A DNA stretch of 64,000 nucleotides from positions 544,001-608,000 of the forward strand of contig CBDCJO010000001.1 of the NCBI GenBank assembly GCA_965217865.1. Direction: 5' to 3'. The notes beneath the pieces were generated by a model. That model worked only from the letters and a program-made list of their open reading frames with translations. It was not told the origin of the DNA and did no database searches. The translations under genes were made by a program, and so were the position numbers. Source of the DNA: Candidatus Latescibacterota bacterium (GTDB lineage: Bacteria > Latescibacterota > UBA2968 > SICM01). Positions within the stretch are counted from its first letter, which is position 1. Each line of letters starts with the position of its first letter. This document shows positions 29,330 to 62,650 of this stretch, in pieces.

Positions 29330-29890
29330 GAGCAGAGTATAGCCGAACCCCGGGTTATTCGCAAATTTTTTTCACAATAACTCTCTCTCACAGGAGGCTC
29401 AGGATGGGAAGATATTCGAAACAGGCCTGGAAAGGCAAGCATCTTTTTATGGGTATCGATCTTCATCGCAAAAGTTGGCACGTGACAATTCGTTCCGAAG
29501 ACGGTTTGGTCCTTTTTTCCAACAACATTGGTGGCCGTTGGGAGGACCTGGAGCGATTGTTGTCCCGGTTCTCCGACGCGGGACAGATCTCGGTCGTCTA
29601 CGAGGCAGGGTATTTTGGGTTTTGGGTATATGATCGTCTGATCGACTATGGGGTAGATGCGCGGGTTACGCCGCCTCATATGATTTCTCAACGCTCTGGT
29701 AGTCGGGTGAAAAATGATCGTCTGGATAGCGGGAAGTTAGCCGGGTTCCTACAGTCTGGCCATTTGGAGGCCGTATATGTTCCGACTTTGGAAGAGCGAG
29801 CGCACCGGCAAGTGTCCAGACGTCGTCGTCAGTCCATCGGCAATCGGGTTCGGGTTCAAAACCGGATCAAAGCAGAGCTTCGGGTGAATG
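29330..29890 (+). pseudogene. IS110-family transposase 5' fragment with short left end
   Basis: ATG 29404 after AGGAGG; MGIDLHRK, YEAG, KNDRLDS (DEDD RuvC-like motifs); breaks after RIKAELRVNG. Confidence 0.85.
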
Positions 29891-30360
29891 GAACGACACG
29901 ATGGTGTCCGCCGCCTGGGCGGCGAGGGTGGCCTGCCGGAGGTCGAGCCGGGCGGAGAAGCTGTCGCGCCCGTGGGAGGCCATGCCATACCTGTTGCGGA
30001 GTTCGCACAAGCCCTGGATGGTCTGGAGCAGACCCCGGATCGTCTTTTCCACCGATTCGCGCGCCTTCGCCGGGTCGGGATGGTTACGCGGCAACAGGGC
30101 CAGGCGGTTGGTCGTCTCCTTCAAGAGCTTCGGTGCATCCCAGTTGGGGTCCGCCGGCTGGCCGATATCGGCGAGCACCGTCTTGCAGACGGATTCGACC
30201 AGCGTCTTGGAAAGATCGAAGGCGAAGTCCGGCACGCTCTCCAACGCACTCTCGATGGCATGGATCTGCTGATCGATAGCCTCGGCGAGCGGACCGTCGA
30301 GTACCGCCGCGCGAGCGCCGACCATCTGAAAGCGAGCGCGAGCTGAACGGGATCTCGACC
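29890..30360 (-). pseudogene. Abortive-infection C-terminal (Abi_C-like) domain fragment
   Basis: DLSKTLVESVCKTVL...GLCELRNRYGMASHGRD...ATLAAQAADTIVSF; both ends fused to IS pieces. Confidence 0.75.
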
Positions 30361-30986
30361 GGCGTGGTTTACCGGCACCCCTGTTCGTCACGACCGACGG
30401 AGCCGGTGGGCTTATCCAGACCATCGACCAGATGTGGCCGAAGAGTCTGCGCGGGACGCTGCTGGGTGCATCGGATGCGCAACTTTGCAGCCAAGGTGCC
30501 CGATGCGCGCTGGCATGAGATCAAGCCGTATCTGGTGATGATTCGTGACGCCCCGGATCTTCAGGCCGGCCAAAGTGCGGTGCGAGAGTTTCTGGAGAAG
30601 TTCAGCAAGGAGTTCCCCGGTCTGTGCAAGTGTCTCACGGAGGACCTCGAAGCTCTCCTCGCACACCTCCAGCTTCCCTGGCGACTCCGGAAGTTCGCCC
30701 GCACCACCAACCTGATCGAACGCAGCTTTGTCGAGGAACGCCGCCGAACCAAAACATTGCCGCGATTCTTCTCCGAAAAGAGTTGCCTGAAGCTCGTCTA
30801 TGCTGTTCTCATCCGTGCCGCTGCCAGGTGGCAGAATATCAACATCACGTCCACCGAACTGCTCCAGCTCCAGCTGCTCTATGAGGAACGACAGATCGCA
30901 CCACCGGCTGAAATGGTAGCCGTTGCGGAACCTCACTGGACCTCCAGTTGAAGGTTTGCATTTTGCAGGACGCTTAAGACTTGACC
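30361..30986 (+). pseudogene. IS256-family transposase 3' fragment with right end
   Basis: VTTDGAGGL, frameshift, RCWVHRMRN, RTTNLIERSF; probable terminal sequence TTTTGCAG...GACTTGACC. Confidence 0.85.
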
Positions 30987-32440
30987 CAATCCTGTCCAGA
31001 CGTTGAACACTTTTCATAGAATTGGATAGCCTTTTCGTATATTTCTTCGCGGTGCTTTGCCAAACTGTGTGTATCGTCGCCAAAGACGATTAGCGTACAG
31101 TTGCCGCCAGAGTCATTAATGAGTTTCTCGACGTGCTGCATTTCGCTTGTGGTCGCGACGGTATCAAGCGCGCCATGAAACAGCAGGATTGGCCTCTTTA
31201 TATGGGTAGCATGTGTCAATACGGATCGCTCAACTAATGCTTTCTCGCGTTCCCTTGGACTGCTTGGAAGGATTCTATCATGATGGAGGCGCAAGACTCG
31301 AAGACTTGTGCAAGTACACGTGGAGATCCCACCTACGAATGGTGAAGATGCATCTGCCAGGGCAAGGAGACTTAGAAACCCGCCATAGCTATTACCGAAC
31401 AGAGCGATTCTCCTGCCTGTACTAAAGTGTTGCTGCCAGTAGATTCCACAGTCTAATACATCCTGAACGTCTGCGACCCCGGCGACCCCGGTGTTCGCTC
31501 GATCGAGGTCCTCGCCGAAGCCGGTAGAGCCCCTATAAGCCACGCGCACAATCTCGAATCCCTGGCGAAGCAGCCCTAAAGCCCATGAGTCATTTCTATC
31601 GAGACTGCCTCCAGGCCCACCATGCACATACAGAACAGCGAGCTCTCGTGGAGACGGCGGAACCAACCGCTGTACTGGAAGAGCTAAACCATCCGAAGCA
31701 GGAACCGTAAATTCCTCAAGCCTAAAACTCGGTACGGGTTCGGTATGCTCAGCTACGACAGTGCATCCTTCAGATTCTTTCCAGCGGTAGACCTTATGGT
31801 CTGTTCCAAGAAAACAGACGGTATCGTTGTCGGCTCTGAAGGCGATTTGATACCAAGTCAGGTTCTTCGCCACGCTAACCCCGGAATCCAATCTGATGCG
31901 TGAATCTACGCGGCCTACGGGAAACTGCACCCAAACAAGCTCATCGGGTTTGACGCAGAGAAGCCTGTTCGTCGAGTTTGAAAATGCACCTTCTTTCACA
32001 GGCCCATCTTCATAGATCCACCCGGAACCTCGGCCCGTAAGATCTACAACGTGAACGGTCCCTTCTTTCTCGTCGGACACGTGAAGTGCAAACCAGCTTT
32101 CGTCACGTGACCAGGGGAATCGACCAAATCGGTGACCATTTGACTCGGGCAGGAGCGAGGATATTCTTTGACGTTGAAGATCAAATAAATGCACTTTCTT
32201 AGGCTTGTTAAGCTCCTCCAGGTTTTGCCGATGAAATGCAATCAGGTCACCGGATGGGGACCAATTTGGAAACCTGTCCACACTGTCCTTCGATGCGGTC
32301 AATCTATCAAGTTTGCCGCTATCCAATGTGAGGTGAAAAATGTCAGGTGGCCGTTTATTCAATTGCTCGGTACTGTGCTTTTCGTAGGCAGAAAACACGA
32401 GGCTTGTGCCGTTTGGCGACCACTGGCTGAACCCCGCAGG
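30974..32440 (-). CDS. S9 (prolyl oligopeptidase-like) peptidase with TolB-like propeller; 5' end replaced
   Basis: PNWSPSG repeat, HGGPG, YRGSTGFG, nucleophile GNSYGG, HGALD, terminal His; lower GC. The annotated N-terminus is antisense DUF4011 sequence. Confidence 0.8.
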   Translation of the reverse strand, partial: PAGFSQWSPNGTSLVFSAYEKHSTEQLNKRPPDIFHLTLDSGKLDRLTASKDSVDRFPNWSPSGDLIAFHRQNLEELNKPKKVHLFDLQRQRISSLLPESNGHRFGRFPWSRDESWFALHVSDEKEGTVHVVDLTGRGSGWIYEDGPVKEGAFSNSTNRLLCVKPDELVWVQFPVGRVDSRIRLDSGVSVAKNLTWYQIAFRADNDTVCFLGTDHKVYRWKESEGCTVVAEHTEPVPSFRLEEFTVPASDGLALPVQRLVPPSPRELAVLYVHGGPGGSLDRNDSWALGLLRQGFEIVRVAYRGSTGFGEDLDRANTGVAGVADVQDVLDCGIYWQQHFSTGRRIALFGNSYGGFLSLLALADASSPFVGGISTCTCTSLRVLRLHHDRILPSSPREREKALVERSVLTHATHIKRPILLFHGALDTVATTSEMQHVEKLINDSGGNCTLIVFGDDTHSLAKHREEIYEKAIQFYEKCSTSGQDWVKS

Positions 32441-32825
32441 CGTCCGGTCGGGACGACGAAACCGGCTCGCTCGATGTCGATCAGGAGGTTCCGGAAGAAC
32501 TGCTTTCACTCATGGCTGAGGCCGAGGACGATCCCGACTGGTTGGCGAAGCGTCACCTCGACAACAAGCTCCAAACGCCATACGACACGAGCCGCCTCGA
32601 CATCCTCCTCAGGAACACCTACCGCCACGCCCACCTCTCTCTTGAAGAACAGGGCGTCAACATCCTCTACCTGGCCCTGGGAACGCTCAACTGGTATGAA
32701 TCGAAGTCGAGCGACATCCAGCTGATGGCGCCCCTGGTTATGGTCCCGGTAGAGCTGTCGCGGGAAAGCGCACGGGCTCGCTTCAAGGTGCGTTGGACGG
32801 GCGAGGAGATCGACGGGAACTCGGA
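32440..32825 (+). pseudogene. DUF4011 helicase (Hhe-like defence protein) internal fragment
   Basis: LQTP...LEEQGVNILYLALGTLNWYE...APLVMVPVEL, typical of DUF4011. Confidence 0.8.
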
Positions 32826-32838: not shown

Positions 32839-33387
32839 CTACGGTATCGGCGAAGAATGCGTCTCGCCATCCCGGCCTCTTATCTCTCCTAATTGTTCGA
32901 GTGCATCCCGGTGCAGCTTTCGCAAGTTCGAGGCTATCTCCGCGATTTTCCCCGTCGTCACGTGCACCTCAACGACGATGCTGTCCCTTCTGGGTGTCTG
33001 CTGCACCATCTCCCACGCTTCCCATCGGCCTCCATTTGTTAGCACTGCGTAACGGGCGCCGATTTCCGTTGCGTATCCAGACGCCTGCCTTCGATCCGTG
33101 TCCTTCGGCCCTGAATCTGGAGGCTTGGCCTCCACAACGGCAAGGAATGCACCTGTCGACGACACGAGAACGTAGTCCACCTTGTTCCCGTTGGCACGAT
33201 GCTCTAGCCGGACCCGCGCCGGGTCTTTGACGTCCCAACCCAATGCGTTCAACACCCCGTCGATAACCAGCGCCCTCGTCGCCGTCTCATTCCCGTGGAG
33301 GTACTCGTAATGCTCGGTCAGAACCTTCCGAGCTTCCTTGATGCTCTCCTCAAGCAGGGTCCCCTTGCCATCCTCCAGCTCAGCCAA
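32839..33387 (-). CDS. Stand-alone HsdR_N-like PD-(D/E)XK endonuclease
   Basis: NETATR...LGWD...VDYVL...VVEAK...QASGYA...LTNGGRW; RBS AGGGAG; 182 aa. Confidence 0.8.
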   Translation of the reverse strand: MAELEDGKGTLLEESIKEARKVLTEHYEYLHGNETATRALVIDGVLNALGWDVKDPARVRLEHRANGNKVDYVLVSSTGAFLAVVEAKPPDSGPKDTDRRQASGYATEIGARYAVLTNGGRWEAWEMVQQTPRRDSIVVEVHVTTGKIAEIASNLRKLHRDALEQLGEIRGRDGETHSSPIP

Positions 33388-33409
33388 TGCTCACTCCCTA
33401 ACCCTTCAT

Positions 33410-33726
33410 GAAAGTATTTGAACTTGGATACCCCTTCCTTTGGAAGGGGAGAAGAAGTTTAGCTTGCCGAAGGCAAGCTAAAAGGGTGTCTTATCGTGTT
33501 CAGACCACTGAGACACAAATCGACTCAGGAGGCATACGATGGGACTCCGACGGACCAGTCACGCAGTCTATGATAGCCAGTATCCTCTGGTATGGGCACC
33601 GAAGTACCGGAAATGGATTCTGCGAGGTGACCTTCGAGCGTATGTGGGCAAGCTGTTTCATCGGATAGCAGAAGATTTTGGGGGTGGGAGTGGTTAATGC
33701 CCCGCCCTTTGGGCGGGGTGGTTTAC
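33410..33726 (+). mobile_element. Internally deleted, non-autonomous derivative of the IS200 at 10698-11302 (317 bp)
   Basis: Near-identical left end and first ~47 tnpA codons, then a jump to the right-end hairpin at a TTTGG microhomology; same TCAT target and GGTTTAC end. Confidence 0.92.
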
Positions 33727-33758
33727 TCGCACGCGCGTCCCTGTAGTCGCCCGACGGT

Positions 33759-34196
33759 CTACTTGCCACGACGTTCCCATGCCCGGCCCAAGGCCCGAAT
33801 ACTTTCCCAGATCGATCTCCATGAGCTAGGCTGGGTGTCTCTCCTGGGCACTTCGCCTGTTTCCGTTTGGTAGTAGCTGTTGCGTCTGGTCCAGGCCTTT
33901 TGCCGCACCAGCGCGATTTCAGCTTCCGAAAAGCCGCGCGCCCACCGGACGATTCCTTCATCGATCCAGTAGTGTGACCTGCACGAAAAACTCCAGTTCC
34001 CGATGGACGGCTCCAGGGAGATCGTTCTCCCGTCATAGGTGAGCCTCCACTCGACGGGGCCAAGAGGGGTCACCACCTCCTCCCCGCACCCGCACGCACA
34101 CCGGTGGACCACCGTGCCGAAACGCATCGACACATACAGAACACCGTCATCCAGCTGTTCCGGTATGTGATCCACGAATTCGTTGCGCAATCTCAT
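33759..34196 (-). CDS. DUF6527 family Cys/His-rich protein
   Basis: FVDHIPEQLDDGVLYVS, HRCACGCG, PSIGNWSFSCRSHYWI; start overlaps the ThiF stop. Confidence 0.85.
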   Translation of the reverse strand: MRLRNEFVDHIPEQLDDGVLYVSMRFGTVVHRCACGCGEEVVTPLGPVEWRLTYDGRTISLEPSIGNWSFSCRSHYWIDEGIVRWARGFSEAEIALVRQKAWTRRNSYYQTETGEVPRRDTQPSSWRSIWESIRALGRAWERRGK

Positions 34197-35383
34197 TGGC
34201 TATCGTCAGCCTGCCCCAGCATCCTGTTGCTCATGTGATTTCCGTCGATCGTGTAAGTGCTCCTGTCCTCTTTGCCAAGGTCCATGTAAAACCCCCGGTG
34301 CTTCTTCCACCGGATTACCGCGAGGGCCGCATTCAGCGCGTTCAGTTCCACGATCTGCACGTTCCTCTCGTACTCGCCGACGTCCCGCAATCCGCCCTCA
34401 CCGCGTCGTACCGCCGAGCTCTTCGGCGTCTCACAGAAGCTCGTTCTCACGACCCCTACCAGCTTGTCGTCCGTCTTCTCGATGCCCATTCCCACGTCGA
34501 CGAACGGCACTCCCATCCGGTCCAGTGTCGGCAGCAGCCACTGCCTAGTTTCGTTGTCGTCGACGGCGACAAACACGAAATCGAGGTCGCCAAGCACATT
34601 GACGTTATCGGCCTCCACATCGAATTCGTGCGCGACGACGCCGCTCCTTATCTTCGCGTACCGTTCGCTGTACAGTTGAGCCTTGGTCGGTCTCTTCTCG
34701 AGCTCCTCGGCTGTCGTCGGACCGGGCGCGCGGAACGCGTTGTGCTGCTCGAACCGGTCGCCGTCGAACAGATGGATCTCCGCGACGCGTGTCTTGCTGA
34801 CGTAATCCAGAATGTACGATCCCGTACCTCCGAGCCCGATTATGCCGATCCTGTCTCCGGACAGTCTCTCGTTCAACCGGGTTATCCCAGCGCGGCTCGA
34901 CGCAGTTTCCATGAACACGAAAGGGTCGTTCGGGTCTGCCGACAGCACCAGTTTCCCCGCGCAGGCTATCGCTCCGGGGTCTATTCGTTTTGCACACCGT
35001 CCAATCACCTGCGCGTAGTGCGTCAGCTTGTGATGGTAATCCTCGTACTTCCCCGCCACCGGCCTTGCCGAGAAGTAATGGTCGACCCATAGGCCTTCGG
35101 CGAGCTCTTGGCGTTGGCTGCTGTTCCGCAGAGCCTCGATCGGCGCACCGCGGTCGTCGCAGGGGTACTCGCCCGCAAAGTACATCGTGTGATCTGGCGG
35201 CGGCCCCGTTTCCGAACCGTCGACGGCTAGGGGACAGACGAGCTGACCGTACTTCACGGTTCGCTCGCTTGTAACGTACGGGACGCGATGCAGCACCAAA
35301 TGCCCGGAGCGGACCTCTATCTCGTAGCCGTCCTCGACGAGTCGCTTAAGGTCCTCCCTACGACTGATCAGTTCTTGTGACAT
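34193..35383 (-). CDS. ThiF/E1-family adenylyltransferase with N-terminal DUF6791 (E2-like) domain
   Basis: N-terminal VPYV...FAGEYPC...YHHKLTHY; ThiF motifs GLGGTGS, DGD...HNAFRAPG, FVAVD, FVDVGMG, LNALNAALAVIRWKK. Confidence 0.88.
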   Translation of the reverse strand: MSQELISRREDLKRLVEDGYEIEVRSGHLVLHRVPYVTSERTVKYGQLVCPLAVDGSETGPPPDHTMYFAGEYPCDDRGAPIEALRNSSQRQELAEGLWVDHYFSARPVAGKYEDYHHKLTHYAQVIGRCAKRIDPGAIACAGKLVLSADPNDPFVFMETASSRAGITRLNERLSGDRIGIIGLGGTGSYILDYVSKTRVAEIHLFDGDRFEQHNAFRAPGPTTAEELEKRPTKAQLYSERYAKIRSGVVAHEFDVEADNVNVLGDLDFVFVAVDDNETRQWLLPTLDRMGVPFVDVGMGIEKTDDKLVGVVRTSFCETPKSSAVRRGEGGLRDVGEYERNVQIVELNALNAALAVIRWKKHRGFYMDLGKEDRSTYTIDGNHMSNRMLGQADDSQ

Positions 35384-35630
35384 TGATAATCGTTCCGTCC
35401 CGCACCTTCAGCCTTTGCCCCTCGTCTAGCTCTCCTTCGGGTATTCGGCTGCCGGCCTCCCGGAACGTGATCGTGAACACGATCTGCGGGCCCCTGGCCG
35501 GATCGTCGAATGCAAGGTCCACTAGCTCGTCGAACGACAGTTCGTCACGCTCGACCTGCCTTTGCCGCCCATTGACCGTTATCAAGAACGTCTTGTCGTC
35601 CAATCGGTCTAGTTGGTTTTCCTTACTCAC
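35358..35630 (-). CDS. Multiubiquitin-domain (Ubl) protein
   Basis: ITVNGRQ...LSFDELVDLAF...LKVRDGTIINVTRTDQS; GTG start after GGAGGAG. Confidence 0.85.
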   Translation of the reverse strand: MSKENQLDRLDDKTFLITVNGRQRQVERDELSFDELVDLAFDDPARGPQIVFTITFREAGSRIPEGELDEGQRLKVRDGTIINVTRTDQS

Positions 35631-35644
35631 GAGATTCTCCTCCT

Positions 35645-35945
35645 ATGCTCAGTCGTGTCCTTAGAGATAGTTTGAAAACGTTCGATGCCTGGCTTCATAA
35701 AACTCACGACCTCGTCCGGCTCGACAAATTTTGTTTCTCCGCCACAGAATTTCTGGAAGAGTTTGTGTGTGTCCGGGGTCTTTCCCACCAGCGCGAGAAT
35801 CTTGATACCCGGAAGATCTGGCTTAGACACGCGTTTTCGCTATCGGTCGATGCCGGATAATGTAGATGTCCGAGGGCGGCTTCTCGACAGCAGGATTCTC
35901 TTTGGCGAATGCCCCAACGCCGAGTTCTTCGATGTTCGGTTCCAT
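35645..35945 (-). pseudogene. Degraded multiubiquitin-domain (Ubl) gene
   Basis: ATG 35945 after GGAGGAGG; reconstructed MEPNIEE...YIIRIDR*RKRVSKPDLPGIKILALVGKTPDTHKLFQKF...PGIERFQTISKDTTE, with one frameshift, one in-frame TAG and a damaged end. Confidence 0.7.
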
Positions 35946-36109
35946 TAGATTAACCTCCTCCTAGTTGCCCAGGATCACAACTTAAGAGGGTGGCGTCCGA
36001 CAGACCAGAACACGAAGCCTTGGTCAGGTAGTACAGATTTCTGAGAATCTGAATCAAACATCGTACATCTCCTTTGAGAAAGGGCTGAAAGTTTGCGCTT
36101 TGTTTCCGA

Positions 36110-36190
36110 GACATTAACCCTTATATTATAACCTACCGAATTATGGAGAAGAGCCCTAATAATATAACCCAATTAATTATATTGTCAAGG
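36110..36190. promoter_or_regulatory. Divergent promoter region with candidate XRE operators
   Basis: AT-rich; minus-strand TTGACA (36183-36188) with TATATT/TATTAT 16-18 bp away; related motifs ATTAACCC, TATAACC and ATATAACCC repeated. Confidence 0.55.
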
Positions 36191-36203
36191 GGAAAAATTG
36201 GCC

Positions 36204-36533
36204 ATGTCAGAATTTGGAGAGAGGCTGAGGAGAGCAAGGCAGAATAAGGGGATGCTGCAGGAAGACTTAGCACAGGCAATGGGGCTAACTCAGGCATCGA
36301 TTTCCCAGTTCGAGAAGGGACAAAGGACACCCACCCCGGAAAATATCCGTAAATTAGCTCAAATACTGGGGGTGAAGGAGGAGGACCTAGCAGGCAAAGA
36401 TAAGGGGAATTTCGAAAGGGCATTGTTAATGCGAAATATGCGAGATTTGTCCCCTGGATCTCTCAGTAGGATCAACGAGTATGTGGAGCTGATAAAGGAG
36501 AGTGAAAGAGCAAGAAGACGGAGAAAGAGATGA
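36204..36533 (+). CDS. XRE-family HTH regulator (CapH/ImmR-like)
   Basis: FGERLRRAR...QEDLA...ISQFEKGQRTP...LAQILGV. Confidence 0.92.
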   Translation: MSEFGERLRRARQNKGMLQEDLAQAMGLTQASISQFEKGQRTPTPENIRKLAQILGVKEEDLAGKDKGNFERALLMRNMRDLSPGSLSRINEYVELIKESERARRRRKR

Positions 36534-37405
36534 TTTTGAGACGTACAATAGCGGCCTACGCCTCTCAGCTACGTGAAAACATGGGAATCGGTGAAAACGC
36601 CGCCATTGGACACCTCGTTCATCATATCAAAGAAGCGGGATATGAGTATCTTGAGGAATCCTTTGGTGATGAATTTTCAGGATTTTCGCAATCCCTTGGT
36701 GGAGGCAAGTATCTTATAGGATTCAATCGTGAGCACCTCTGGAGCATCAAATTTCAAAGATTCACTTTGTCTCACGAATTAGGGCACCTTACTATCCCGG
36801 AGCACCGCAGGATATTGGACAACACAGGCTTGCATCGGTCCAAGAGTGAGTTTCAATCCCAAGATCCGATTGAGCGGGAGGCGGATTACTTCGCCATATG
36901 CTTTCTGACTCCGAGGAAGTCCTTTCAAGATGCTATGAAACACAAGGAATACACAAAAGACACCATCTTTGGGCTCTCCGAAAAGTTTGGGATATCGGCC
37001 TATGCTACTATCCTTCGGTTCATAGAACTGACAGACCAGTCTTGCACTTTGATCGTGAGTAACAGCACTGGAATGATTGAATACGAAAGACGGTCCAACC
37101 GGATGAAGGAATCCTGCCAACAGAACTTTTTGGCTGGAAAGAAAATTAAGGAGACAACTCTTACTTTTGACTATATCAAGGGCCGGAAAGGGGAGAACAG
37201 CTGTACCGTCTCTCTTCGGGAATGGTTTGAGGATCTGCCTGAAGAGATTGAAATCGATGCGACCGAATCTGTAATCGACCTGGGATATAACAACAAGTAT
37301 CTGACCTTGTTGACTCCACATGTTACGGATGTGGACGAATATAGTAGGGACTGGGAATCACCAAGATCATTCCCAAAACACGGAGGTCGACCTAGTACCT
37401 ATTGA
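36530..37405 (+). CDS. ImmA/IrrE-family metallopeptidase (CapP-like)
   Basis: RFTLSHELGH (HExxH), EREADYFA, HTH-like segment LSEKFGISAYA, C-terminal extension; coupled to the XRE gene (ATGA overlap). Confidence 0.92.
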   Translation: MILRRTIAAYASQLRENMGIGENAAIGHLVHHIKEAGYEYLEESFGDEFSGFSQSLGGGKYLIGFNREHLWSIKFQRFTLSHELGHLTIPEHRRILDNTGLHRSKSEFQSQDPIEREADYFAICFLTPRKSFQDAMKHKEYTKDTIFGLSEKFGISAYATILRFIELTDQSCTLIVSNSTGMIEYERRSNRMKESCQQNFLAGKKIKETTLTFDYIKGRKGENSCTVSLREWFEDLPEEIEIDATESVIDLGYNNKYLTLLTPHVTDVDEYSRDWESPRSFPKHGGRPSTY

Positions 37406-38618
37406 CATTTAAAACGAGCGTGCCGAATGTTTGTTATCTCCCCGATCCGTTCGCTGTGGGAGGAGGATCGGCATGCCCAACAGGAAGTACATCGTCCGTC
37501 CAAGTTGCGATGAGCGGAAGCACTTGCAGGATCTGGTAAGCAAAGGCCGGACACAGGCCTACCGGATCCGACACGCACACATTCTGATGAAGGCCGACGC
37601 GGATGGCCCTTGCTGGGGCGACGAAGCCATCGCCCAAGCGTTTTCGTGCCACAGACGCACCGCGGAAGGCATTCGCAAGCGCTTTGTGGTCCAAGGGCTC
37701 GACGCAGCCCTTGAGCGGAAGAAGCGGGAACGACCGCCCATCGAACCGATTCTGGACGGCGAAAAGGAAGCTCGCTTGATCGCCCTGGCCTGCAGCCAGC
37801 CGCCGAAAGGTCGTAGCCGCTGGACGCTGGAGTTGCTCGCTGACAAGCTGGTTGAACTCAACATCGTCGAGAGCATCTCCTATCGGACCGTGCAACGGGC
37901 GCTCAAAAAAACGAACTCAAGCCCCATCTGAAAACGTGCTGGGTGATTCCGCCCAGGGAAAACGCCGCATTCGTAGCTTGCATGGAGAATCTTCTGGATC
38001 TGTATCACCGGCCCTATGATCCGGAAAGGCCGCTTTTGGCCATGGACGAACACCCCGTGCAGTTGACCGGAGAGACACGCATCCCGGTCCCGGAAAAACC
38101 GGGGCATCCCCGACGTCACGACTATGAGTATGAGCGTAACGGCACAGCCGCGAATTTCTTGTTCCTCGAGCCCCTGACCGGACGTCGGAAGGTCCACGTC
38201 CGGGAACGCAGGACCGCCGTAGACTGGGCTTACGAGATCCAGGAACTGCTTGAGGTGGACTACCCGGATGCGCAAGTCGTGGTGCTGGTCTGCGACAACC
38301 TCAGCACTCACACCATCGCATCTCTCTACAAGGCCTTCCCACCCGAAAAGGCCCGTTCTCTAGCCAAACGCCTCGAATTGCACTACACGCCCAAGCACGG
38401 TAGCTGGCTCAATATCGCCGAGATCGAACTGAGCGTCCTTGCCAGACAATGCCTGCACAGCCGCATTCCTGACCTGCAGACCCTCACCAACGAAGTGGAG
38501 GCCTGGAAATGTGATCGAAACGAGAAACACAGAACCCTTGATTGGCAGTTCACGACCACCGACGCCCGCATCAAACTGAAGAAGCTATATCCCAAGTTTT
38601 AGGTGTCATGGTGTACTA
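37393..38618 (+). mobile_element. IS630-family element, complete; transposase 37473-38602 split by a probable programmed -1 frameshift
   Basis: Ends CTAGTACCTATTGACA / TGTCATGGTGTACTAG; A7 slippery site at 37905-37911; MDE, DNLSTH, YTPKHGSWLNIAEIE. Confidence 0.93.
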
Positions 38619-38783
38619 GGTAGAGGGAGGAACCCCGGACAGGCGATTTCACAAAGTCAGTCACTAAACACTTTCGGATTAGCAGATAAGGGCTTGAAGG
38701 TATGGGGGGTGTCGTTGGAAACCCGGCAATGATTGAGGTTTCAGAACACAGAGCACTTATAGAGGGGAGAGGTCATCGCGTAC

Positions 38784-39765: not shown

Positions 39766-39781
39766 GAGGGGAGGGTGCCTG

Positions 39782-40905: not shown

Positions 40906-40906
40906 A

Positions 40907-52092: not shown

Positions 52093-52117
52093 CTTGCCCG
52101 ATGGGCTTTCTTCAGAC

Positions 52118-52303: not shown

Positions 52304-52431
52304 CGGACTCCTGCTTGAAGAAAGCCCATTAGAGATAATAAAAATATATGAAAATTAGCTTCCGTAGGTCAATCGAAAACCTTGCCATGACCAGGATGAG
52401 CCGCTGCGGTGATGGAGGGGGGTGTTGGCCG

Positions 52432-52730: not shown

Positions 52731-52749
52731 CACGTCGGCGAGCGGGTCG

Positions 52750-53630: not shown

Positions 53631-54443
53631 CTGACGTGCAAGAAGACCTTTGCCACCAGGTTTCTGGAGAACGAGTAAATACAGATGAAAACCACCGTCG
53701 ATGGTCTCTCCTTCTTCGCAGACCCTTCGGTGCAACCCCAGCAGCTTGTCCGAGAAACGCTCAACAGAGAAATCGGGGATCTCCCATGGGATACACTTCA
53801 GATAGTATACAAGTGCGCCGACATCGGTGTACTGTGTGACCGGATAGACTTCGGCTGCATGTACTACTCCGAACCCCGCTTTCTCAGAGGCTGACCGCGC
53901 ACCACTTAGATTGCCAAGCTCATTTGGCTGCGGCAGCGGTACTCCAAGCAATTGATGGATCTCCAAGTTTGTCTTATTTCCCACCTGCTCCGTGATGAGC
54001 GCTCCACCAGGCTTCAGAACTCTATATTCCTCTACGAACGTGCACATCCCGTGACGGTTCAAGAGAAGATCGAACCTCTCATTTTCGAAAGGCAATTCAC
54101 CTGGATCTGACACCTCGTAGACTTCAACTCCGAGTGGTTCCAGGCGCTTCCGAGCCACAGGGATATTAGGTGGATAGCCCTCCGTCGCACATGCGTGTCC
54201 TTCGAACGCGCAGTTCTCCAGAATCTTTCCAAAACGCTCCCCGCCTCCTGTTTCCTGATCCAAAACGACACGACTTGCTCGCAGCGCGTCTGCTGCAATT
54301 GAGGCATAGTTCCAGAAGTCAAAACCAATGTTTAACCTTCGTCCTTTTATATAAGAAAAATCCCATCCCTCAAACGGCTGCTCGTATTCACTACGAAGCC
54401 AAGCCAGGATCTCCTCGTCCCTTCTTTCTTCGGCTTTATTCAC
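53607..54443 (-). CDS. Class I SAM-dependent methyltransferase
   Basis: GTG start at 54443; FEGWDFSY, VLDQETGGGE, LPFENERFDLLLNRH, RVLKPGG, IPWEIPDFSVE. Confidence 0.88.
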   Translation of the reverse strand: MNKAEERRDEEILAWLRSEYEQPFEGWDFSYIKGRRLNIGFDFWNYASIAADALRASRVVLDQETGGGERFGKILENCAFEGHACATEGYPPNIPVARKRLEPLGVEVYEVSDPGELPFENERFDLLLNRHGMCTFVEEYRVLKPGGALITEQVGNKTNLEIHQLLGVPLPQPNELGNLSGARSASEKAGFGVVHAAEVYPVTQYTDVGALVYYLKCIPWEIPDFSVERFSDKLLGLHRRVCEEGETIDGGFHLYLLVLQKPGGKGLLARQLKALKMS

Positions 54444-54493
54444 TTTCACCTTTCCAATCGGTGCCAACGGCTCGAAATGTGGCTCTTGCTGAT

Positions 54494-56059
54494 TGTATCT
54501 ATTCTGAGATAACAAGAGAAAAGTAGATAAAGGTCCAAGCAAGATTCAGGCAGCCTTGTGGATGGTCTGGGATGTTCTTTGCCGATTGATTTCTATGCGG
54601 CGCTGCCGAGCCTCCTCCTTTCGACCTTGTCGGTGGTGAAGAATCTTTTGATGCTGGCCTTTATGCCTCTGAAGAGGCGTGACATACTGTATTGCCCCGT
54701 GATAGCGTTCGGCGTTGTAGCTGTGAATGAAGGAATCAATCAGGCCTTCCAGTTGATGGAATGTGAAGATGTCCTGGAAGCGCAGCCAGTCGTATTTGAA
54801 TGTCCGGAAAAAGGCTTCGATCCAGGCGTTGTCCGTGGGTGTTTGATATCGGGCAAACAGCTGCGAGATGCCCAGGTCCTTGAAGAATTGGGCCATCGAT
54901 TTGGCCTTCATCTGAGATCCGTGATCTGAGAGGGCTGTCAAGCTTATGGGCCCAGTGTCCAGGTCCAGCAGTCCTTCGTTGGCAAGGGCTTGATCCCAGG
55001 CCTGTTTGACCTGCTCCACGGTCGCGTTGAAGGAGAGCTTCCATCCTACGATCTTCCTGGAATACACGTCGAGAATGGCGGTAAAATACAGGAACAAACC
55101 GAAAAATGGGATGTAGGTCAGGTCCCAGCTCCAGACCTGATTAGGACCTTCAGGTTTGACCTGGGGCTTGCTCTGCTTGACCGGCGTCCTCACCTGTTTC
55201 CTGCGTGCCAGACGTTCTTTCCTGGCCTGTCGGTAGAAGCTGGAGGCCGAGGCCTGCACTACCCCCTTCTCTGAGGCTACCACCGCCAGCTGATGGGGAG
55301 GCAGATCGGCATAGGTCTCATCCCTTAAGAGGGCCGGGATTTGCTCTTTCTCCTCCCTCAGCAATCCGTGTGGGGCCTCATCAGGAGCGGGCCCGGGCTT
55401 CCCATCCAAAAGCGGGTCCGACACCCCATCCAGCTTCTCTTCTCGATCTCGCCGGCTCCAGGCACAATACCGCTGGAGGGGAAGCTGTAGGATCTCGCAA
55501 GAACGGGTGAGTTTCACCCCTTTCTCCTTGGCCCGATGGACCATTAAGAGGATCTCGCGTTTGACCTCAGCTTGCACCCGGTGGCCCTTGATCGGGCCTG
55601 TCAGATCCCATTCACACTTTTTTTTAGCAGGGAAAGTTCCACAGATTGCTCAATGATCGTTTGCTCCAGGCGTGCCCGCTCTTTGCGCAGCTGCTCCACC
55701 TCCTCAGCCGATACCATCGGCTTGCGGCTCCGGCGACCCTTGAACTCCTTGAGGGCCCCGGACTTGACCGACTCACGAATACGCTTTAGATCCGAGGAAT
55801 GAATGCCCCATTTCCGCAGCACCTGTGCAATGGGAACATCTCCCCGGCTGGCTTCAAGGAAAATCTCATACTTCTGTTCCGGGGACAAGCTCCTGCGCTT
55901 CTTGACCGGGTCACTGTTTGAGGACAGTTGCTCCATCTTTACTCCTCCTGTGAGGTCAGGGATATCCCAAAATATGTATCCCTTCTCAACCCTACAGGCA
56001 ACCAGGATCTTGCTTCGACCTTGCCCCCGTTTTTTCGGGCGATCTCAGACAAAAGATAC
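54494..56059 (-). mobile_element. IS3-family element, complete, copy 2 (inverted relative to copy 1)
   Basis: Same length and identical proteins to 43064-44629; two SNPs noticed; target duplication TGAT (54490-54493, 56060-56063). Confidence 0.93.
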
Positions 56060-56159
56060 TGATCACAAACCATGAGGCGAAGGTTATAACGGCCTCAATT
56101 CATTCAAGTGCTTGTTGCACAGCCCTCCGTACGACTCTCCTCTTGTCGTTAGCAACAGT

Positions 56160-56303: not shown

Positions 56304-56520
56304 GGCGATGGCGGAGAGAGACCGGTAGCGGCGTCCCTCGAACGCGAAGCCGTCATCGAGCACCTGGACCACGAGGTCGCGGCCCTGGAAGGCGCGCACC
56401 AGAAGCGTCCCCGGCAGGGGCAGCCACCGGTCCCGCGAGGGCGACAGGCGATCCGCTTGCGCAGGAACGCCTTGTGGTACGAGCGGGTCTCCTCCCCGAA
56501 GACCTTGATGTACTTCTCTC
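56303..56520 (-). pseudogene. DUF2924 fragment (serine-recombinase ICE module gene)
   Basis: VFGEETRSYHKAFLRKRIA and LPGTLLVRAFQG...GFAFEGRRYRSLSAIA. Confidence 0.8.
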
Positions 56521-57399
56521 CAAGGGGATGCTTGCCGGAGGAATTTCCGAAACGTCGAAACCGGCCGTCCGGATGCAACCAAGCTGTTAAATAAGGCCGA
56601 CTGAAAAAACAGAGAATCAGAGAATCCGGAGGAGGTATCTCTGCTCAGCGGGCGCACCCCCCACGGTTGCGCTCGAACATCTGAGGGAGCGCTTCGAAAC
56701 AGAGAACCGGCAGCGAGGGGAGGAGGTGGCCCAAGTGTTTGTGAATACGGCAGAAACGACAAGACCCCGAAGGGTTGCCCCACGGGGTCTTGCGTTAACG
56801 GACGACCGCCGAAGTTGGCGGATGGGAATATGGCTCCCCATATGATCCTCTCCCCGGAACCATTCTCTGTTCATCAGTCGTAACTTGCTGTATTGAAAGG
56901 AGCTATCGCAATTACGCCCGCGCCGCAGACGCGGAAGACAGCGTCAAGACGACTTCCGCCCTTCAGGTCAAAACAGCCACTTCTCCGACATGGGATCAGG
57001 ATATCCGGGTCGTCGTTACCCACGCTGTTCAGAGGGAGAGGGGATTCGATCGAAAACAGGGTTAAAGTTCGGGAATGACTTGCTCAGGCGTTCGGGGGAA
57101 TGCCGGGTCAGCAAATTCTTATAGGCCGGCTCGACTTTCTCGCTGTTCTGAAATTCATGCCACTCCGCTAGGATCTTGCCTTCTGGAAAGTCCTTGAATC
57201 CAGGGGCTACACCCATCAGTATCTCCCTGGGCTACTTCTTCGGGTGTCGATTGAAGAACGGCAGGCACTTCGCTCGGGGGGACATAGGGACGTCGGGCGT
57301 TGTCAGAGGCAGCGATGTCCGAACACCATGCCAGCATGGAATAAAGCACGGCAAAGCATAATAGAAACCGGAAGACAACTGGGAGATTCCCGGCATTCA

Positions 57400-57897: not shown

Positions 57898-58009
57898 GAC
57901 CGATGCTCCTTTCCCCTCCCTTTCATGGATATCTGAACCATCCAAAACGCCGCCACGCCGGAAACACCCCTCTGCTGATTTTCTTAACGGCGGGCCGATT
58001 CAAGGCTAA

Positions 58010-58120
58010 CTCTAACATCTGCCGCTTGAACTCTGGCGGATACGGCGGATGTGTCCTCGGCATCGTGGCATCCTCCTTTCTGCCAAGTAATAAGGTATCC
58101 ACGAAACCGGGTCAAGTCCA
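58010..58120 (-). pseudogene. IS3-family left end plus orfA stub
   Basis: TGGACTTGACCCGGTTTCGTGGATACC end, RBS, MPRTHPPYPPEFKRQMLEL. Confidence 0.7.
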
Positions 58121-58985
58121 ATCCAAAAAAAAGCCTCCGAGCTCCTGGGGATCCCCCTGAGCCAGCTCGACGAAGACGACAGCGGTTGATACAGGCCGCA
58201 GAGGAGCTCTCCCGCAAAGTTGGGGTGGCGCCTGCCTGTGATACGCTGTCGGTGTCTCGGGCAAGTCTGTATCGTTGGCGGCAGGCCCCCACCACACGGG
58301 TAAAGCGCAGGTCGCATCGGGCCCTGGCCCCTCCCGAACAGCAGGCTGTCTTGGATCTGTTGCACTGCGAACGGTTTATGGATAAAGCCCCTCCTCAGGT
58401 CTGGGCCGAGTTGCTGGATGAAGGCCTGTATTTCTGCTCACTCAGCACGATGTATCGCATCCTGAAGGCACACGAGGAAGTCCGGGAACGCCGAAACCAG
58501 CTCGGACATCCGAACCATCCAGCGCCTCGCCTGGTGGCAACGGCGCCTAACCAGGTGTGGTCTTGGGATATCACGAAGCTGCTGGGGCCTGTCAAGTGGA
58601 CGTTCTACTATCTCTACGTGCTCCTGGACATCTACAGCCGCTATGTCGTCGGCTGGATGGTCGCGCGCCTGGAAAAAGAGGCGCTGGCCAGGCGCCTCAT
58701 CGAGGAGAGTTGTAAAAAACAAGACGTTGTGCCGGGCCAATTGACCCTACACGCTGACCGGGGCGCTTCGATGACCAGCAAACCCGTGGCACTCCTGCTG
58801 GCCGATCTGGGGCTGACCAAATCGCACTCACGACCGCACGTGTCGAACGACAACCCCTACTCCGAGGCGCAGTTCAAGACCTTGAAGTATCGCCCGGACT
58901 TCCCGGAACGCTTCGGGGGGCTTGCACACGCCCGTTCATTTTGCCATGAGTTCTTCACCTGTTACAACACAGGGCATCGCCACTT
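58121..58985 (+). pseudogene. IS3-family orfB transposase fragment (third IS3 type)
   Basis: PNQVWSWDITKL, LDIYSRYVVGW, HADRG, SRPHVSNDNPYSEAQFKTLKY; both ends missing. Confidence 0.88.
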
Positions 58986-59039
58986 TCTGGTCTCTTTGAT
59001 GATGGGATCCGGCGTCACCATGCTCGAAGCTTCGGTGTA

Positions 59040-59735
59040 GTCCCGCAGGTTGCGTGGTACCGCGGTCCGTTCATGCCGCTGTTTCAGACCGACTTCCGCA
59101 ACGGCGTCGCAGCGCTCAACCGCTTGCTCAACCATGCCGCGCGCATCCGTGTGCGCACCCTGGCACGTCTCGGTCCGATGCACTTACCTCTCGAAGACGA
59201 CGCTGTTGGTTCATACCAGGCCGAACTTGAGATTTCTGGCGCGCGCCAAATCTACGTCGGCGATGACCACGTGTGGCTTTGGTACCGCGGAACAGGAGTC
59301 GGGCCATACCCATGCTTCAGTGCACTACAGGCGCTGGAGCGAGTGTGCGACCAACTGATCAAGAGCGACCTACCGTGGTTTCGATACTACTCAATGGCTG
59401 CGAGAGCCTCGCGATGGTCGGCCTCGTCGTCGGACTCCTCGTCCGGCATCTTGAGAGCGCAGGCCATCTACTGGACCCCTACCTAACTGAACCGGTGATC
59501 TGGCACCAAGAGTTCGGGCGAGTCGTAAAAGAAAGCGGCGGATTCGCGGCGGGCTCCGAAGAACTCGTGGCGCCAGAGCGCCGAAACTGGTCTCTACGCG
59601 AGGCAGCTAGGTTCATGGCCGTACGAGCCAATGCCGAACGCGCCGTGGAGCTACGCGCGCTCGGTGAGAACCTCGTTGCAAACGCGCGTCGCCACATCGA
59701 GTCGACACGCGACGACGAACCACAGGAAGCGGAGG
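59040..59735 (+). pseudogene. Internal fragment of a large putative STAND/Avs-like protein
   Basis: GDDHVWLWYRGTGVGPYPCFSALQALERVCD, frameshift, GCESLAMVGLVVGLLVRH; family call from memory only. Confidence 0.4.
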
Positions 59736-59739
59736 CGAC

Positions 59740-60351
59740 ACTGCGGTCGAGCATGCGTGCGATCAAAGTCCGGGTTTTCCCGGTGCCGGGGCCCGCCTCT
59801 ATCAGATGCGGACCAGACTCCGCTTCGGCTGCGACCCTTTGCGACGCATCCGGCGCAGGCACCTCGAGAGACGGCGTGGTGTAGACTTGCAATTCGGGTA
59901 CGAGAAGCGCCCGCGCAAGTTGCTGGTGCACCAATCCGATCTGAACACCAAGACGCTTCGCGATATCCGCCGCAGAGATTCCTTCTTCGGAAAACAATCG
60001 CCGTGCTTCACTGCTTGGCAGAAGGAACTCTCGCGCAAAGACATTGGCCTGGCATTCCCTGCGTTCGCGCGGCCCATAACCCTCTACTCGTTGAATGCCC
60101 AGCGGGATCCGTTCCTCGGGCATCGTAACGTCGATGTCGGATACGCTACAGGCGCCCGTTGTGCTGTCCAGAAAGTGATGACCGAACTCGTGCGCCTGGT
60201 AGAAGGCCGCTTCTTCCGCGCTGACGCCTTTCTTGTAGAAAATCCCAGACACCAATGAGTCGAGGACAGCTTCGGCTTCGCTCAAGACCGGATCGTCATC
60301 TGGAACGGGTTGACGCACGATGCCTGTTATTGCGGTCGCCCCGTCAAGCAA
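59740..60351 (-). pseudogene. ImmA/IrrE peptidase-UvrD helicase fusion, N-terminal fragment
   Basis: AHEFGHH (HExxH), ECQANVFAREFLLP, HTH-like segment, then DASQ...IEAGPGTGKTRTLIAR (UvrD motif I) and truncation. Confidence 0.82.
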
Positions 60352-60415: not shown

Positions 60416-60515
60416 CTAGTACTTAGCTGCGCAAGTTTATGCGTGCAAATCCGCCCTTAACATCCTGTTTTTGCAAGGAAATCAGATTACGAGAATTTCC
60501 GCAGGTTGGTACTAG
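60416..60515. mobile_element. About 100-bp MITE-like element bounded by CTAG
   Basis: Imperfect terminal IRs CTAGTACTTAGCTGCGCAA / TTCCGCAGGTTGGTACTAG, no ORF. Confidence 0.6.
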
Positions 60516-60516
60516 T

Positions 60517-62348
60517 CCCTATACAAGCGTGAATTTTTCTTGGTTTTAGTAGAAAAAAGTTGAAAATGCCCCAGTTTTCAGGCCTATAGTTGTAGTGTGA
60601 AAGACAAAAAGAGGCCATCAAAAGGGGCATTTCAGATGAGAGAATATAGGAAGATTCTTCGGAACAGGGAAGCACGAATTGTCCGTCGTTTGCGTCGGAA
60701 GCAGTGGTGCAGTCAGGTCAAGCCTATGATGTCTGGGGGAAACATCCACTACGAGATAAGTGGGAAGGCCGAGGCGATCACGTGTGGGGGGATCGGCGCG
60801 TTTCACCACATGGTCCGCAGGGTTGGGCTGGTGAAAGAGATTGACCGTCATCTTCATCTTTTGAAAGTGCATTTGCCCTGTCACGAATCAGACCACGTTC
60901 TGAACATCGCCTACAATGCGCTGGTTGGTGGTCAACGCCTTGAAGACATTGAGCTGCGCCGGCAGGATGCCACGTTCCTGAACGCTTTGGGCGCTCAGCG
61001 TCTCCCGGATCCGGCCACAGCAGGCGACTTTACACGTCGTTTCCGGCCATCGGATATCGAGACGTTGATGGATTGCATCAACCGGGTGCGCACCCGGATC
61101 TGGAAAAAGCGCGCCAGGGGCGAACTCAAAGAAGCCCTCATCGACATCGACGGCACCCTGGCCACCACCCTCGGAGAACGCAAGCAGGGCATGGCCCTGT
61201 CATACAACGGTATCTGGGGATACCATCCTCTCGTGGTCTCTCTGGCGAACACCAGGGAGGTGTTGTTTCTTGTGAATCGACCCGGCAATGTGCCCAGCCA
61301 CGACGGTGCCGTAAAGTGGATCGATCGCGCCATCGCGCTGGTCGCCCCTTTCGCCAAACGCATCTGCCTGCGCGGAGACACCGGCTTCTCACTCACCCGG
61401 CACTTCGATCGTTGGTCGGAAAAGGTCGACTTCGTCTTCGGCATGGATGCTTACCGGGGATTGGTCAAGATCGCCAAATCCCTGTCACAGAGCGATTGGG
61501 AGCCCTTTGAACGACAACCCAAATACCAGGTCAAAACCTCCCAGAGACAGAAACGCGAGAACGTGAAAGCCCGGATCATCCGGGAGCGCGGCTTCAAAAA
61601 CATCCGACTTGCCAGTGAACGTGTTGCCGGGGTTTCGTATCGTCCTGCTCGATGCAGGAAGACCTGTCGACTCGTGATCCTCGAAAAGAACCTGAGCGTC
61701 GAACGCGGCGAAAACGCCCTGTTCGATGACAAGCGCTGTTTCTTCTACATTACCACCCGAAAAGATCTTACGGCCGCGGAAATCGTGAGGCTGGCCAATC
61801 GACGGTGCGATCAGGAAAACGTGATTGAACAACTCAAGAACGGGGTCAACGCCATGCGGATGCCCGTCGACAACCTGATGAGCAACTGGGCTTACATGGT
61901 CATGACCGCCCTGGCGTGGAACCTCAAAGCCTGGTTCGCGTTGATGATCCGAAAGCGTGAGCGTCGCGATCAACTTCTGAGAATGGAGTTTCGCGCCTTC
62001 CTCCAGAATCTGATCTGGATCCCTTGCCAGATCGTGACCCGGGGAAGACAGATCATCTATCGTGTCTTGGGCTACAACCGGTGGATGACTGACTTCTTCC
62101 CGGCCTGGAACAGAATCAGATGGCTCAAACCGGCCTGACTGCCATGTCAGCACCTGTCGTCGTAACATCACAGGGACAAGTCCGTCCACCCCGGCTAAAA
62201 CACGTCCGCAAACTCAGTTAATTAGACAATCGCATGCCGAAACAATCACAAAAACAGCCCAGACATCATCTCCACCAAGTCACAAGTCTGAAATGCTCCG
62301 AAATCTTGTATAACACACCGCTCAACAAGCCTATTCGCTTATTTTAGG
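60517..62348 (+). mobile_element. IS1380-family element, complete (transposase ~60636-62138)
   Basis: IDIDGT, GYHPL, LRGDTGF, RCDQENVIEQLK, NWAYM; IRs CCTATACAAGCG / CGCTTATTTTAGG; flanked by ACTAGT on both sides. Confidence 0.92.
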
Positions 62349-62650
62349 ACTAGTGCAATTTTTCCCCTTGTATGAAAAAGGTTGTCCCGGTCGCCTTTTC
62401 GATTCCCGAGTCACGATCCACGGATTTTTGAGGCCGCGGGCCCTCCCAAAACGGGTCGATTCCGGACTGAGTCGAAGGTCATCGTTTCGCCCAAAAGCAA
62501 TGGTTCAGAACCTGATAATGACCTTTGACAATCCAATGTGTCAAGAATACACGCCTTCAAAAATTAAACATTGCATAAGTTGAGTATTAATATTACATTG
62601 AAATCTCCACAAGATTCGACCTTAAACTTAAATACCTATTATTAAAGGAG

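What the first reader, a model, noticed from the sequence alone, without database searches (positions are those of the whole stretch)
29330..62360. 33-kb patchwork of more than 30 short mobilome and defence fragments joined end to end
Seen: consecutive 50-900 bp pieces of IS110, Abi_C, IS256, DUF4011, DUF4143, DEAD helicase, MmeI, two CRISPR arrays, JAB, HGGxSTG, IS630 (two types), PIN, DUF1016, IS481, IS1380, excisionase, GGCT, HEAT, DUF2924, IS3 (two types) and IrrE-UvrD, in mixed orientation. Most joints are gene-interior to gene-interior with no IS end or target duplication, while the preceding 29 kb is intact. Inference: either repeated island integration with heavy deletion, or a locus that captures DNA scraps by end joining, possibly acting as an antisense or guide memory of mobile DNA. 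The second idea is speculative.
Basis: partly seen in the sequence, partly recalled or inferred. Interest (0 to 1): 0.75.

Follow-up and report, generated by a model that had tools for sequence, protein, structure and literature searches.

The report
Eroded stack of serine-recombinase islands
This real patchwork of broken genes is one piece of a junkyard covering about a quarter of this bacterium's genome, marked by 37 copies of the attachment site of a mobile element family that sits at asparagine tRNA genes; the elements likely piled up one behind another and were then likely whittled down by many deletions, rather than forming a memory of captured DNA.

Summary
The patchwork is real: contigs from two studies bridge several joints base for base. 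It is less fragmented than described, since about 44% is whole IS or whole genes, and it is not unique, since such zones fill about 26% of the genome. The genome holds 37 such cores. One follows tRNA-Asn directly, and one element splits a gene that is whole in two relatives. Relatives of the recombinase in other phyla also sit behind tRNA-Asn. The joints fit erosion by deletion: scraps collinear with the intact element, mostly 0-2 nt microhomology, more broken pieces more diverged, and no IS split by a foreign scrap. Ku and LigD are present; no Argonaute was found. Capture by end joining is not excluded: 30 of 54 scraps are lone. The scan noted smaller tRNA-Asn serine-recombinase arrays on other DNA before. 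Verdict: new variant of tandem island accretion plus decay, unusual mainly in scale.

The parts
56518..57031 (-). attP-type junction of the DUF2924/large-serine-recombinase element: left arm (about 56838-57031), 7-nt core GGAGCCA (56831-56837), right arm (56518-56830)
   Evidence: 41 copies of >=150 nt, all in repeat-rich zones; right arm follows tRNA-Asn at G000 C1:620054; 37 core+right-arm copies; homologous arm behind tRNA-Asn in other phyla
56304..56518 (-). two DUF2924 scraps, collinear with the intact element behind the right arm, separated from it and from each other by deletions of about 310 and about 160 nt
45054..45861 (-). second junction relic: right-arm extension (45062-45286) and left-arm extension (45512-45861) in the same orientation, with the core region missing
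48871..48924 (-). third junction relic (54 nt of the left-arm extension), same orientation
29371..29891 (+). IS110 5' part, broken in the transposase; 94% to two longer copies; marks the left edge, which is a rearrangement breakpoint
   Evidence: the neighbour gene of the BamA-like gene in G001/G002 lies at G000 C2:3472-3473 kb beside another zone
29892..30347 (-). Abi_C scrap
30348..30986 (+). IS256 right part with its native end
30987..32822 (.). S9 peptidase lacking its 5' end (minus strand) joined to an internal DUF4011 scrap (plus strand, about 32480-32822)
   Evidence: joint bridged by X1 and X3
32839..33387 (-). HSDR_N-like gene; a 69-nt interior piece is present at 100% as a lone scrap at G000 C2:3212815
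33402..33729 (+). IS200 with an internal deletion of about 280 nt (5-nt overlap), shared by five copies
33759..37405 (.). largely intact cargo: multi-ubiquitin, DUF6791-ThiF and DUF6527 genes (minus) with divergent capH-capP (plus); type II Bub-like operon
37391..38620 (+). whole IS630
39612..40906 (+). DUF4143, DEAD-helicase and MmeI scraps joined interior to interior
   Evidence: two joints bridged by X3
40907..41652 (.). non-coding repeat of about 0.9 kb, second copy at 57047-57964 (about 90%), about eight matches elsewhere in the zones; role unknown
41706..42965 (.). remains of two CRISPR repeat types (2-3 repeats each) around an unassigned gene piece
43061..44629 (+). whole IS3 with a CCAG target duplication, inside a scrap of a repeated gene
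45862..45964 (-). 103-nt internal IS630 scrap, flush with the element left-arm extension
45997..48702 (-). near-whole cargo: frameshifted prenyltransferase, GNAT, membrane protein, zinc-ribbon protein
   Evidence: frameshifts absent in other strains' contigs
48925..49900 (.). PIN scrap, a 140-nt scrap of a gene found longer at G000 C2:4067 kb, and an IS481-like 5' part
50129..51493 (-). two PRTase-like genes, apparently whole
51661..54486 (-). IS1380 right part, excisionase-type HTH, GGCT scrap, internal IS630 scrap, unassigned scrap, methyltransferase part
54494..56061 (-). whole IS3; absent from contigs of runs X2, X3 and X10, so inserted after the scrap joints formed
58005..60351 (.). left end of one IS3 flush with the interior of another, unassigned pieces, IrrE-UvrD 5' part
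60511..62354 (+). whole IS1380 at the right edge

Best explanation
The region holds one attachment junction and two junction relics of an element family that carries DUF2924 and a large serine recombinase; it is most likely a heavily eroded, displaced piece of a stack of such elements that likely accreted behind tRNA-Asn. Shown: 37 copies of the core with its right arm, one directly behind tRNA-Asn; a complete 11-kb element splitting a gene that is whole in relatives; three whole recombinase genes and many scraps of it; internal deletions with short microhomology. Inferred step 1: each new circle recombined at the restored tRNA end (or at a look-alike GA-core site) and pushed older elements along, leaving attP-like junctions every 12-46 kb. 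Inferred step 2: the cargo (defence genes, IS) was mostly dispensable, so IS insertions and repeated deletions, many longer than an IS and probably sealed by Ku/LigD end joining, brought distant gene interiors together. Inferred step 3: inversions through IS copies or through the att sites moved pieces such as this one around the chromosome. The patchwork itself most likely has no function beyond the few cargo operons that survive.
For: Att identity. In other phyla DUF2924 lies just upstream of the recombinase in 68 of 70 loci, and tRNA-Asn lies within 3 kb upstream on the same strand in 20 of 62. Five left-arm-only junctions at three unrelated sites (cas1 three times, a response-regulator gene, an unassigned site) switch at the same base. 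The 37 cores run in long same-orientation stretches (10 changes, shuffle p=0.004). Left and right arm distances are uncorrelated over 29 junctions (r=0.05, p=0.25). Deletion: window scraps 56304-56830 are collinear with the intact element. 38 collinear deletion joints peak at 1-2 nt overlap. Substitutions to the nearest whole IS copy rise from 0.7 per kb (whole) to 7.8 (one end) to 17.8 (internal). Two-copy duplicates under 500 nt differ by about 35 per kb, longer ones by about 15. Collinear partners occur for 12 of 54 scraps against 5.5 by chance. 0 of 62 one-end IS pieces share their outer flank with a whole copy. Of 24 split IS alignments none is interrupted by a foreign scrap without target duplication. 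The left edge is a rearrangement breakpoint.
Against: 30 of 54 low-copy scraps have no partner from the same donor region; median identity is 98.8% and 12 are at 99% or more. No relative with the same islands whole and in order was found, so the deletion history of most window joints is not shown. No clear age gradient runs away from tRNA-Asn, and the tRNA-proximal unit is itself broken. The first quarter of the right arm is also uncorrelated with the rest of that arm, so the linkage break is not pinned to the core. The two contigs meet at an unresolved 6-7-kb repeat and contamination is 9.3%, so long-range order is uncertain. In two IS families internal pieces are no more diverged than one-end pieces. 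Zones were drawn by eye from repeat cover. The role of Ku/LigD is inferred from presence and joint type only.
Confidence: 0.7

Rival explanations
1. Part of the mosaic was made by capture: broken island and IS DNA was ligated by Ku/LigD into mixed chains, either at chromosome breaks with large losses or onto attP-bearing circles that the recombinase then integrated.
For: Ku and a 774-aa ligase ORF are adjacent. 113 joints link two different sources, mostly with 0-2 nt overlap, 23 with 1-5 unmatched bases. 30 of 54 scraps are lone. The donor lies in the zones for 58 of 62 matches, as expected if extrachromosomal island DNA is the source.
Against: No IS is split by a scrap although IS make up 12% of zone DNA. 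Small pieces are older than large ones. There is no excess of shuffled partners (15 against 15.6 by chance). Random erosion at one joint per 0.7 kb would give many pieces under 200 nt anyway (inference).
Confidence: 0.15
2. The junction copies were spread mostly by duplication, gene conversion or integration of attP circles through shared IS sequence at many places, not by serial site-specific accretion.
For: Copies lie in about ten separate zones. 19 duplicates of 3 kb or more exist. G007 and G036 also show scattered arm copies. The three cas1 junctions are copies of one event.
Against: Long same-orientation runs; arms recombined freely; most copies have their own flanks; precise secondary-site integration is shown.
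Confidence: 0.1
3. The locus is a guide or antisense memory of mobile DNA.
For: The content is rich in mobile and defence sequence; one whole cas1 is in the genome.
Against: No Piwi match in a 96%-complete genome. No repeat separates the scraps. Joints are the same in samples of two studies, while the only change seen in the contigs is an IS3 insertion. IS families with many scraps still have recent near-identical whole copies. Transcription was not tested.
Confidence: 0.03
4. The mosaic is a misassembly of repeats from a mixed community.
For: Contamination 9.3%, a repeat-rich genome, and a contig break at a repeat.
Against: Independent contigs bridge joints with 0 differences.
Confidence: 0.02

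Closest known systems
Dehalococcoides ssrA genomic islands (McMurdie et al. 2011, PMC3146451; passages read)
   Same: Tandem islands behind a tDNA, a large serine recombinase next to attL, many units without an integration module, accretion.
   Different: The target is tRNA-Asn, not ssrA; the module is DUF2924 plus recombinase; ssrA repeats lie within 100 kb, whereas here 37 cores mark zones of about 1.7 Mb and the cargo is shredded.
Tandem islands in tRNA genes, Islander (Hudson et al., PMC4383910; passages read)
   Same: Integration restores the tRNA 3' end; tandem arrays.
   Different: That paper says serine recombinases are not known to target tRNA genes and lists 4 tandems of three or more in 2168 genomes; here the shared tRNA piece is only 7 nt.
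Tycheposon-built islands of Prochlorococcus (bioRxiv 10.1101/2020.12.28.424599; passages read)
   Same: New elements push older ones away from the tRNA, and degenerate remains pile up.
   Different: Those are mostly tyrosine recombinases (910 of 937); no replication module was looked for here.
Accretion and deletion of ICESt1-related elements (Pavlovic et al. 2004; seen only as a title cited in PMC3146451)
   Same: The two-step logic of site-specific accretion followed by deletion.
   Different: Recalled: tyrosine integrase, a few elements; no conjugation genes were tested here.
Large serine recombinases with relaxed targets (Durrant et al., PMC10083194; passages read)
   Same: A dinucleotide crossover and use of several attB sites.
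   Different: The main text has no mention of tRNA or DUF2924; its supplements were not read and may list this family.

Membership tests
Tandem accretion array of site-specific integrative elements | element end placed at, and restoring, the 3' end of a tRNA gene | tested here: met
   right arm directly behind tRNA-Asn at C1:620054; same in 20 of 62 foreign loci
Tandem accretion array of site-specific integrative elements | repeated att junctions in direct orientation | tested here: met
   runs of 10 and 7 co-oriented cores, p=0.004; order across the contig break is uncertain
Tandem accretion array of site-specific integrative elements | integrase on board next to the att end | tested here: met
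   three whole recombinase genes behind DUF2924, scraps behind many other arms; none whole inside the window
Tandem accretion array of site-specific integrative elements | precise empty site in relatives | tested here: inconclusive
   met for the secondary site in the response-regulator gene; not shown for tRNA-Asn (G001 has IS-like DNA behind it, G002 gave no tRNA-Asn match)
Tandem accretion array of site-specific integrative elements | excision as a circle and re-integration | not testable with these tools
   only contigs were available, no raw or long reads
Large serine integrase | Resolvase + Recombinase + zinc-ribbon domains | tested here: met
   two copies scanned
Large serine integrase | crossover at a fixed central dinucleotide | tested here: met
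   three unrelated sites switch at the same base after GA; inferred from sequence, activity untested
Islander-type tRNA island | tyrosine integrase and displaced tRNA fragment | tested here: not met
   the linked enzyme is a serine recombinase; only 7 nt are shared with the tRNA
Dehalococcoides ssrA islands | target is ssrA | tested here: not met
   target is tRNA-Asn
Dehalococcoides ssrA islands | six-gene dsi module | tested here: inconclusive
   Pfam on neighbours of two recombinases shows no second resolvase, ParB or Mom hit at E<=1e-5; not searched gene by gene
Integron | IntI integrase and attC hairpins between single-gene cassettes | not tested
   units are 12-46 kb and multi-gene; IntI and attC were not searched
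End-joining capture locus | Ku and LigD present; joints with 0-4 nt microhomology or filler | tested here: met
End-joining capture locus | foreign piece inserted between two halves of a recipient | tested here: not met
   0 of 24 split IS alignments; capture with large flanking loss would escape this test
Guide memory (CRISPR, Argonaute) | repeat-separated spacers or an Argonaute, with polar growth | tested here: not met
Guide memory (CRISPR, Argonaute) | small RNAs from the locus | not testable with these tools
   no RNA run holds more than 0.09 of the words and none was laid

The most novel reading that the evidence does not exclude
A serine-recombinase element and host end joining act together as a DNA scrap collector: Ku/LigD ligates fragments of broken mobile DNA onto attP-bearing circles, and the recombinase lands these mosaics at tRNA-Asn and look-alike sites, building a megabase archive of mobilome pieces and new gene fusions.
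Probability: 0.1. Interest if true: 0.82.

Novelty: new variant of a known kind. Interest (0 to 1): 0.5.

Why it matters
It shows how far island accretion can go: at least 37 attachment junctions mark zones of about 1.7 Mb, a quarter of one genome, against 4 tandems of three or more in 2168 genomes in Islander. It also gives the tRNA-Asn-targeting DUF2924 recombinase family a precise, testable attP, a GA crossover and natural secondary sites (one inside cas1), which is useful for integrase biology and tools. The hundreds of dated joints are a natural record of end-joining deletions. The patchwork itself is probably decay, not a new memory system.

Tried and rejected
tRNA scan of the window: none. 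Rfam: only three weak hits below the cut-off. Piwi and AEP-TOTE (IS-excision-enhancer-type) searches in the own genome: no match; the genome is 96% complete. The att unit was not found in the two family relatives; both are fragmented. An 18-nt core scan of metagenome contigs gave 8 chance matches with no further likeness. The IS3 skip at 43060-44630 in X1 and X7 was dropped as evidence of polymorphism, because an uninterrupted paralogue exists in the same genome. The Atlas look-up gave no lineage. The first genome-wide microhomology count mixed tandem repeats and unlisted IS ends and was not used. The exact count on IS rulers gave values for only 12 of 21 joints (11 non-negative, mean 1.5 against 0.68 expected, p=0.02). 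No age gradient from tRNA-Asn was seen. The right-edge neighbour of the aldolase gene in relatives was uninformative. Mageeney et al. 2020 was not held.
Full report
Setting. The window is G000:C1:544001-608000 of a 6.43-Mb, two-contig genome, 96% complete and 9.3% contaminated, with no genus-mate among the genomes searched. The nearest named homologue of its BamA-like protein is from Candidatus Handelsmanbacteria at 58%. No habitat is claimed.

The observation. From 29.3 to 62.4 kb, half of the DNA matches elsewhere in the genome, against 4% before it. About 14.4 of 33.0 kb is whole IS or whole genes, including a Bub-like operon with capH-capP. Contigs from studies P1 and P2 bridge about eight interior joints with no differences and match 2.3-kb stretches exactly; both tables were cut. 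Runs X2, X3 and X10 lack the IS3 at 54494-56061, so that IS is younger than the joints, and these runs are probably not the source sample.

Not a single locus. Repeat-rich zones, drawn by eye, cover 1.67-1.69 Mb, about 26% of the genome. With ten IS families as rulers, 145 of 229 pieces in the zones are broken, against 42 of 132 outside (split alignments inflate both).

The organising element. Window 56528-57031 has 41 copies of 150 nt or more, all in the zones. Read on the minus strand it is a left arm, the core GGAGCCA and a right arm. At C1:620054, 12 kb beyond the window, the right arm directly follows tRNA-Asn(GTT), whose gene ends in that core. There are 37 core-plus-right-arm copies, 29 with the standard left arm, and 53 loci with either arm. 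In the fullest copies the right arm is followed by DUF2924 and a roughly 500-aa recombinase with Resolvase, Recombinase and zinc-ribbon domains. Three copies are whole, and C-terminal scraps follow many other arms. At C2:811.4-822.3 kb an element bounded by the two arms splits a receiver-GGDEF gene that is whole in G001 and G002. Left-arm-only junctions there, in cas1 (three copies of one event) and at C2:115.6 kb all switch at the same base after GA; two other left-arm-only junctions keep more of the core. Among the 80 best recombinase relatives kept of 573, from many phyla (the scan covered 17 of 64 parts), DUF2924 lies just upstream in 68 of 70 loci with enough DNA, tRNA-Asn lies within 3 kb upstream in 20 of 62 and tRNA-Met in 3, and the right arm is 70-75% conserved in the closest ones. 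So the unit is an att site, and left-arm/right-arm junctions are what serial integration at attL leaves (inference from established att logic). The cores form long same-orientation runs (p=0.004) spaced 12-46 kb in the first run. Left and right arms vary independently (r=0.05), although the first quarter of the right arm is too uniform to pin the break to the core. The window holds one whole junction and two relics, all in one orientation. Its left edge is a rearrangement breakpoint: the gene next to the BamA-like gene in both family relatives lies 3.5 Mb away in G000, beside another zone. The arm was found in 10 of 80 other genomes of the class, mostly once, at least 8 times in G007 and 7 in G036; only 9 candidates per genome were scored. 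DUF2924 was found in 4 of 40.

How the joints formed. Where the parent is known, deletion is visible: right arm, DUF2924 start and DUF2924 middle follow each other in the window in parent order, with gaps of about 310 and 160 nt. Genome-wide, 38 collinear deletion joints peak at 1-2 nt overlap, and 113 joints between different sources mostly show 0-2 nt, 23 of them with 1-5 unmatched bases; some may be ends of IS families not in my library. This is not homologous recombination and fits end joining; Ku and an ATP-dependent ligase are adjacent genes. Four tests favour erosion in place over capture. First, none of 24 split IS alignments is interrupted by a foreign scrap: 15 are one MITE family, 5 are multiple deletions, 3 are whole IS and 1 is a 232-nt insert with an 8-nt duplication. 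Second, 0 of 62 one-end IS pieces carry the flank of a whole copy. Third, divergence rises with breakage: 0.7, 7.8 and 17.8 substitutions per kb, and short duplicates are twice as diverged as long ones. Fourth, collinear partners are enriched (12 of 54 against 5.5, 95th percentile 9) and shuffled ones are not. Against this, 30 of 54 scraps are lone, some at 100%, such as the 69-nt and 106-nt pieces of two window genes. At 12-18 substitutions per kb, perfect identity over such lengths is common, so they do not require capture, but they allow it. Donors are island genes in 58 of 62 matches, which excludes capture of random chromosome DNA.

Memory idea. No Piwi match, no repeat between scraps, no new scrap in the contigs of the seven runs laid (contigs drop rare variants), and IS families with many scraps remain active. 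Transcription is untested.

Known kin and novelty. It works like the Dehalococcoides ssrA island arrays (PMC3146451, passages) and tycheposon-built islands (bioRxiv 2020.12.28.424599, passages), but it is a member of neither. Islander (PMC4383910, passages) states that serine recombinases are not known at tRNA genes and counts 4 tandems of three or more. The 2025 TIGER/Islander note (PMC12424338, whole text) includes serine integrases but does not cross them with tRNA targets. Searches for DUF2924 with recombinase (three Wolbachia papers, listing only), serine recombinase with tRNA-Asn (two papers, listing only) and related terms showed no description of this family or of an array this size. 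Subscription papers, Mageeney et al. 2020 and the supplements of PMC10083194 were not seen and may cover it. Earlier AI notes of this scan describe smaller tRNA-Asn serine-recombinase arrays and DUF2924 modules on other DNA and a similar junkyard verdict; I read them after reaching this reading, and they are not independent support.

Verdict. Real, explained mainly by accretion plus deletion (0.7). New variant of a known kind, notable for its scale and for the precisely mapped att sites. Interest 0.5.

Noticed in passing
window 33759-37405: Type II Bub-like bacterial ubiquitination operon (multi-ubiquitin, DUF6791-ThiF, DUF6527) with divergent capH-capP survives largely intact; the DNA upstream of the 90-aa ubiquitin-like ORF holds a broken second ubiquitin-like piece (PMC11601596 passages).
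   Followed up: partly
G000 C2:252261, 376985, 3312903: The element's left arm is joined to the interior of cas1 at the GA crossover, so the recombinase apparently once integrated into cas1; the matching attL was not found.
   Followed up: partly
G000 C2:574612: Left arm plus full core followed by unrelated terminator-like DNA; may be the original attR of the tRNA-Asn site. Not confirmed in relatives.
   Followed up: partly
G000 C2:1831-1834 kb and 1882-1885 kb: Two copies of a second DUF2924-recombinase family (48% identical), one just behind tmRNA.
   Followed up: no
window 40907-41652 and 57047-57964: Non-coding repeat of about 0.9 kb with about eight matches elsewhere in the zones; no Pfam or Rfam match.
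   Followed up: no
window 63411-64000: Tandem REP-like units of about 265 nt with up to 57 matches genome-wide; weak Acido-Lenti-1 hit.
   Followed up: no
G000 genome-wide: 86 whole near-identical copies of one 1534-nt IS (0.5 substitutions per kb): a very recent burst.
   Followed up: no
L132 (G013) and L134 (G007): In two class relatives the homologous right arm follows a tRNA with CAT anticodon, so the family has switched tRNA targets.
   Followed up: partly
L025:8304-9749: A reverse-transcriptase gene inside the complete 11-kb element.
   Followed up: no
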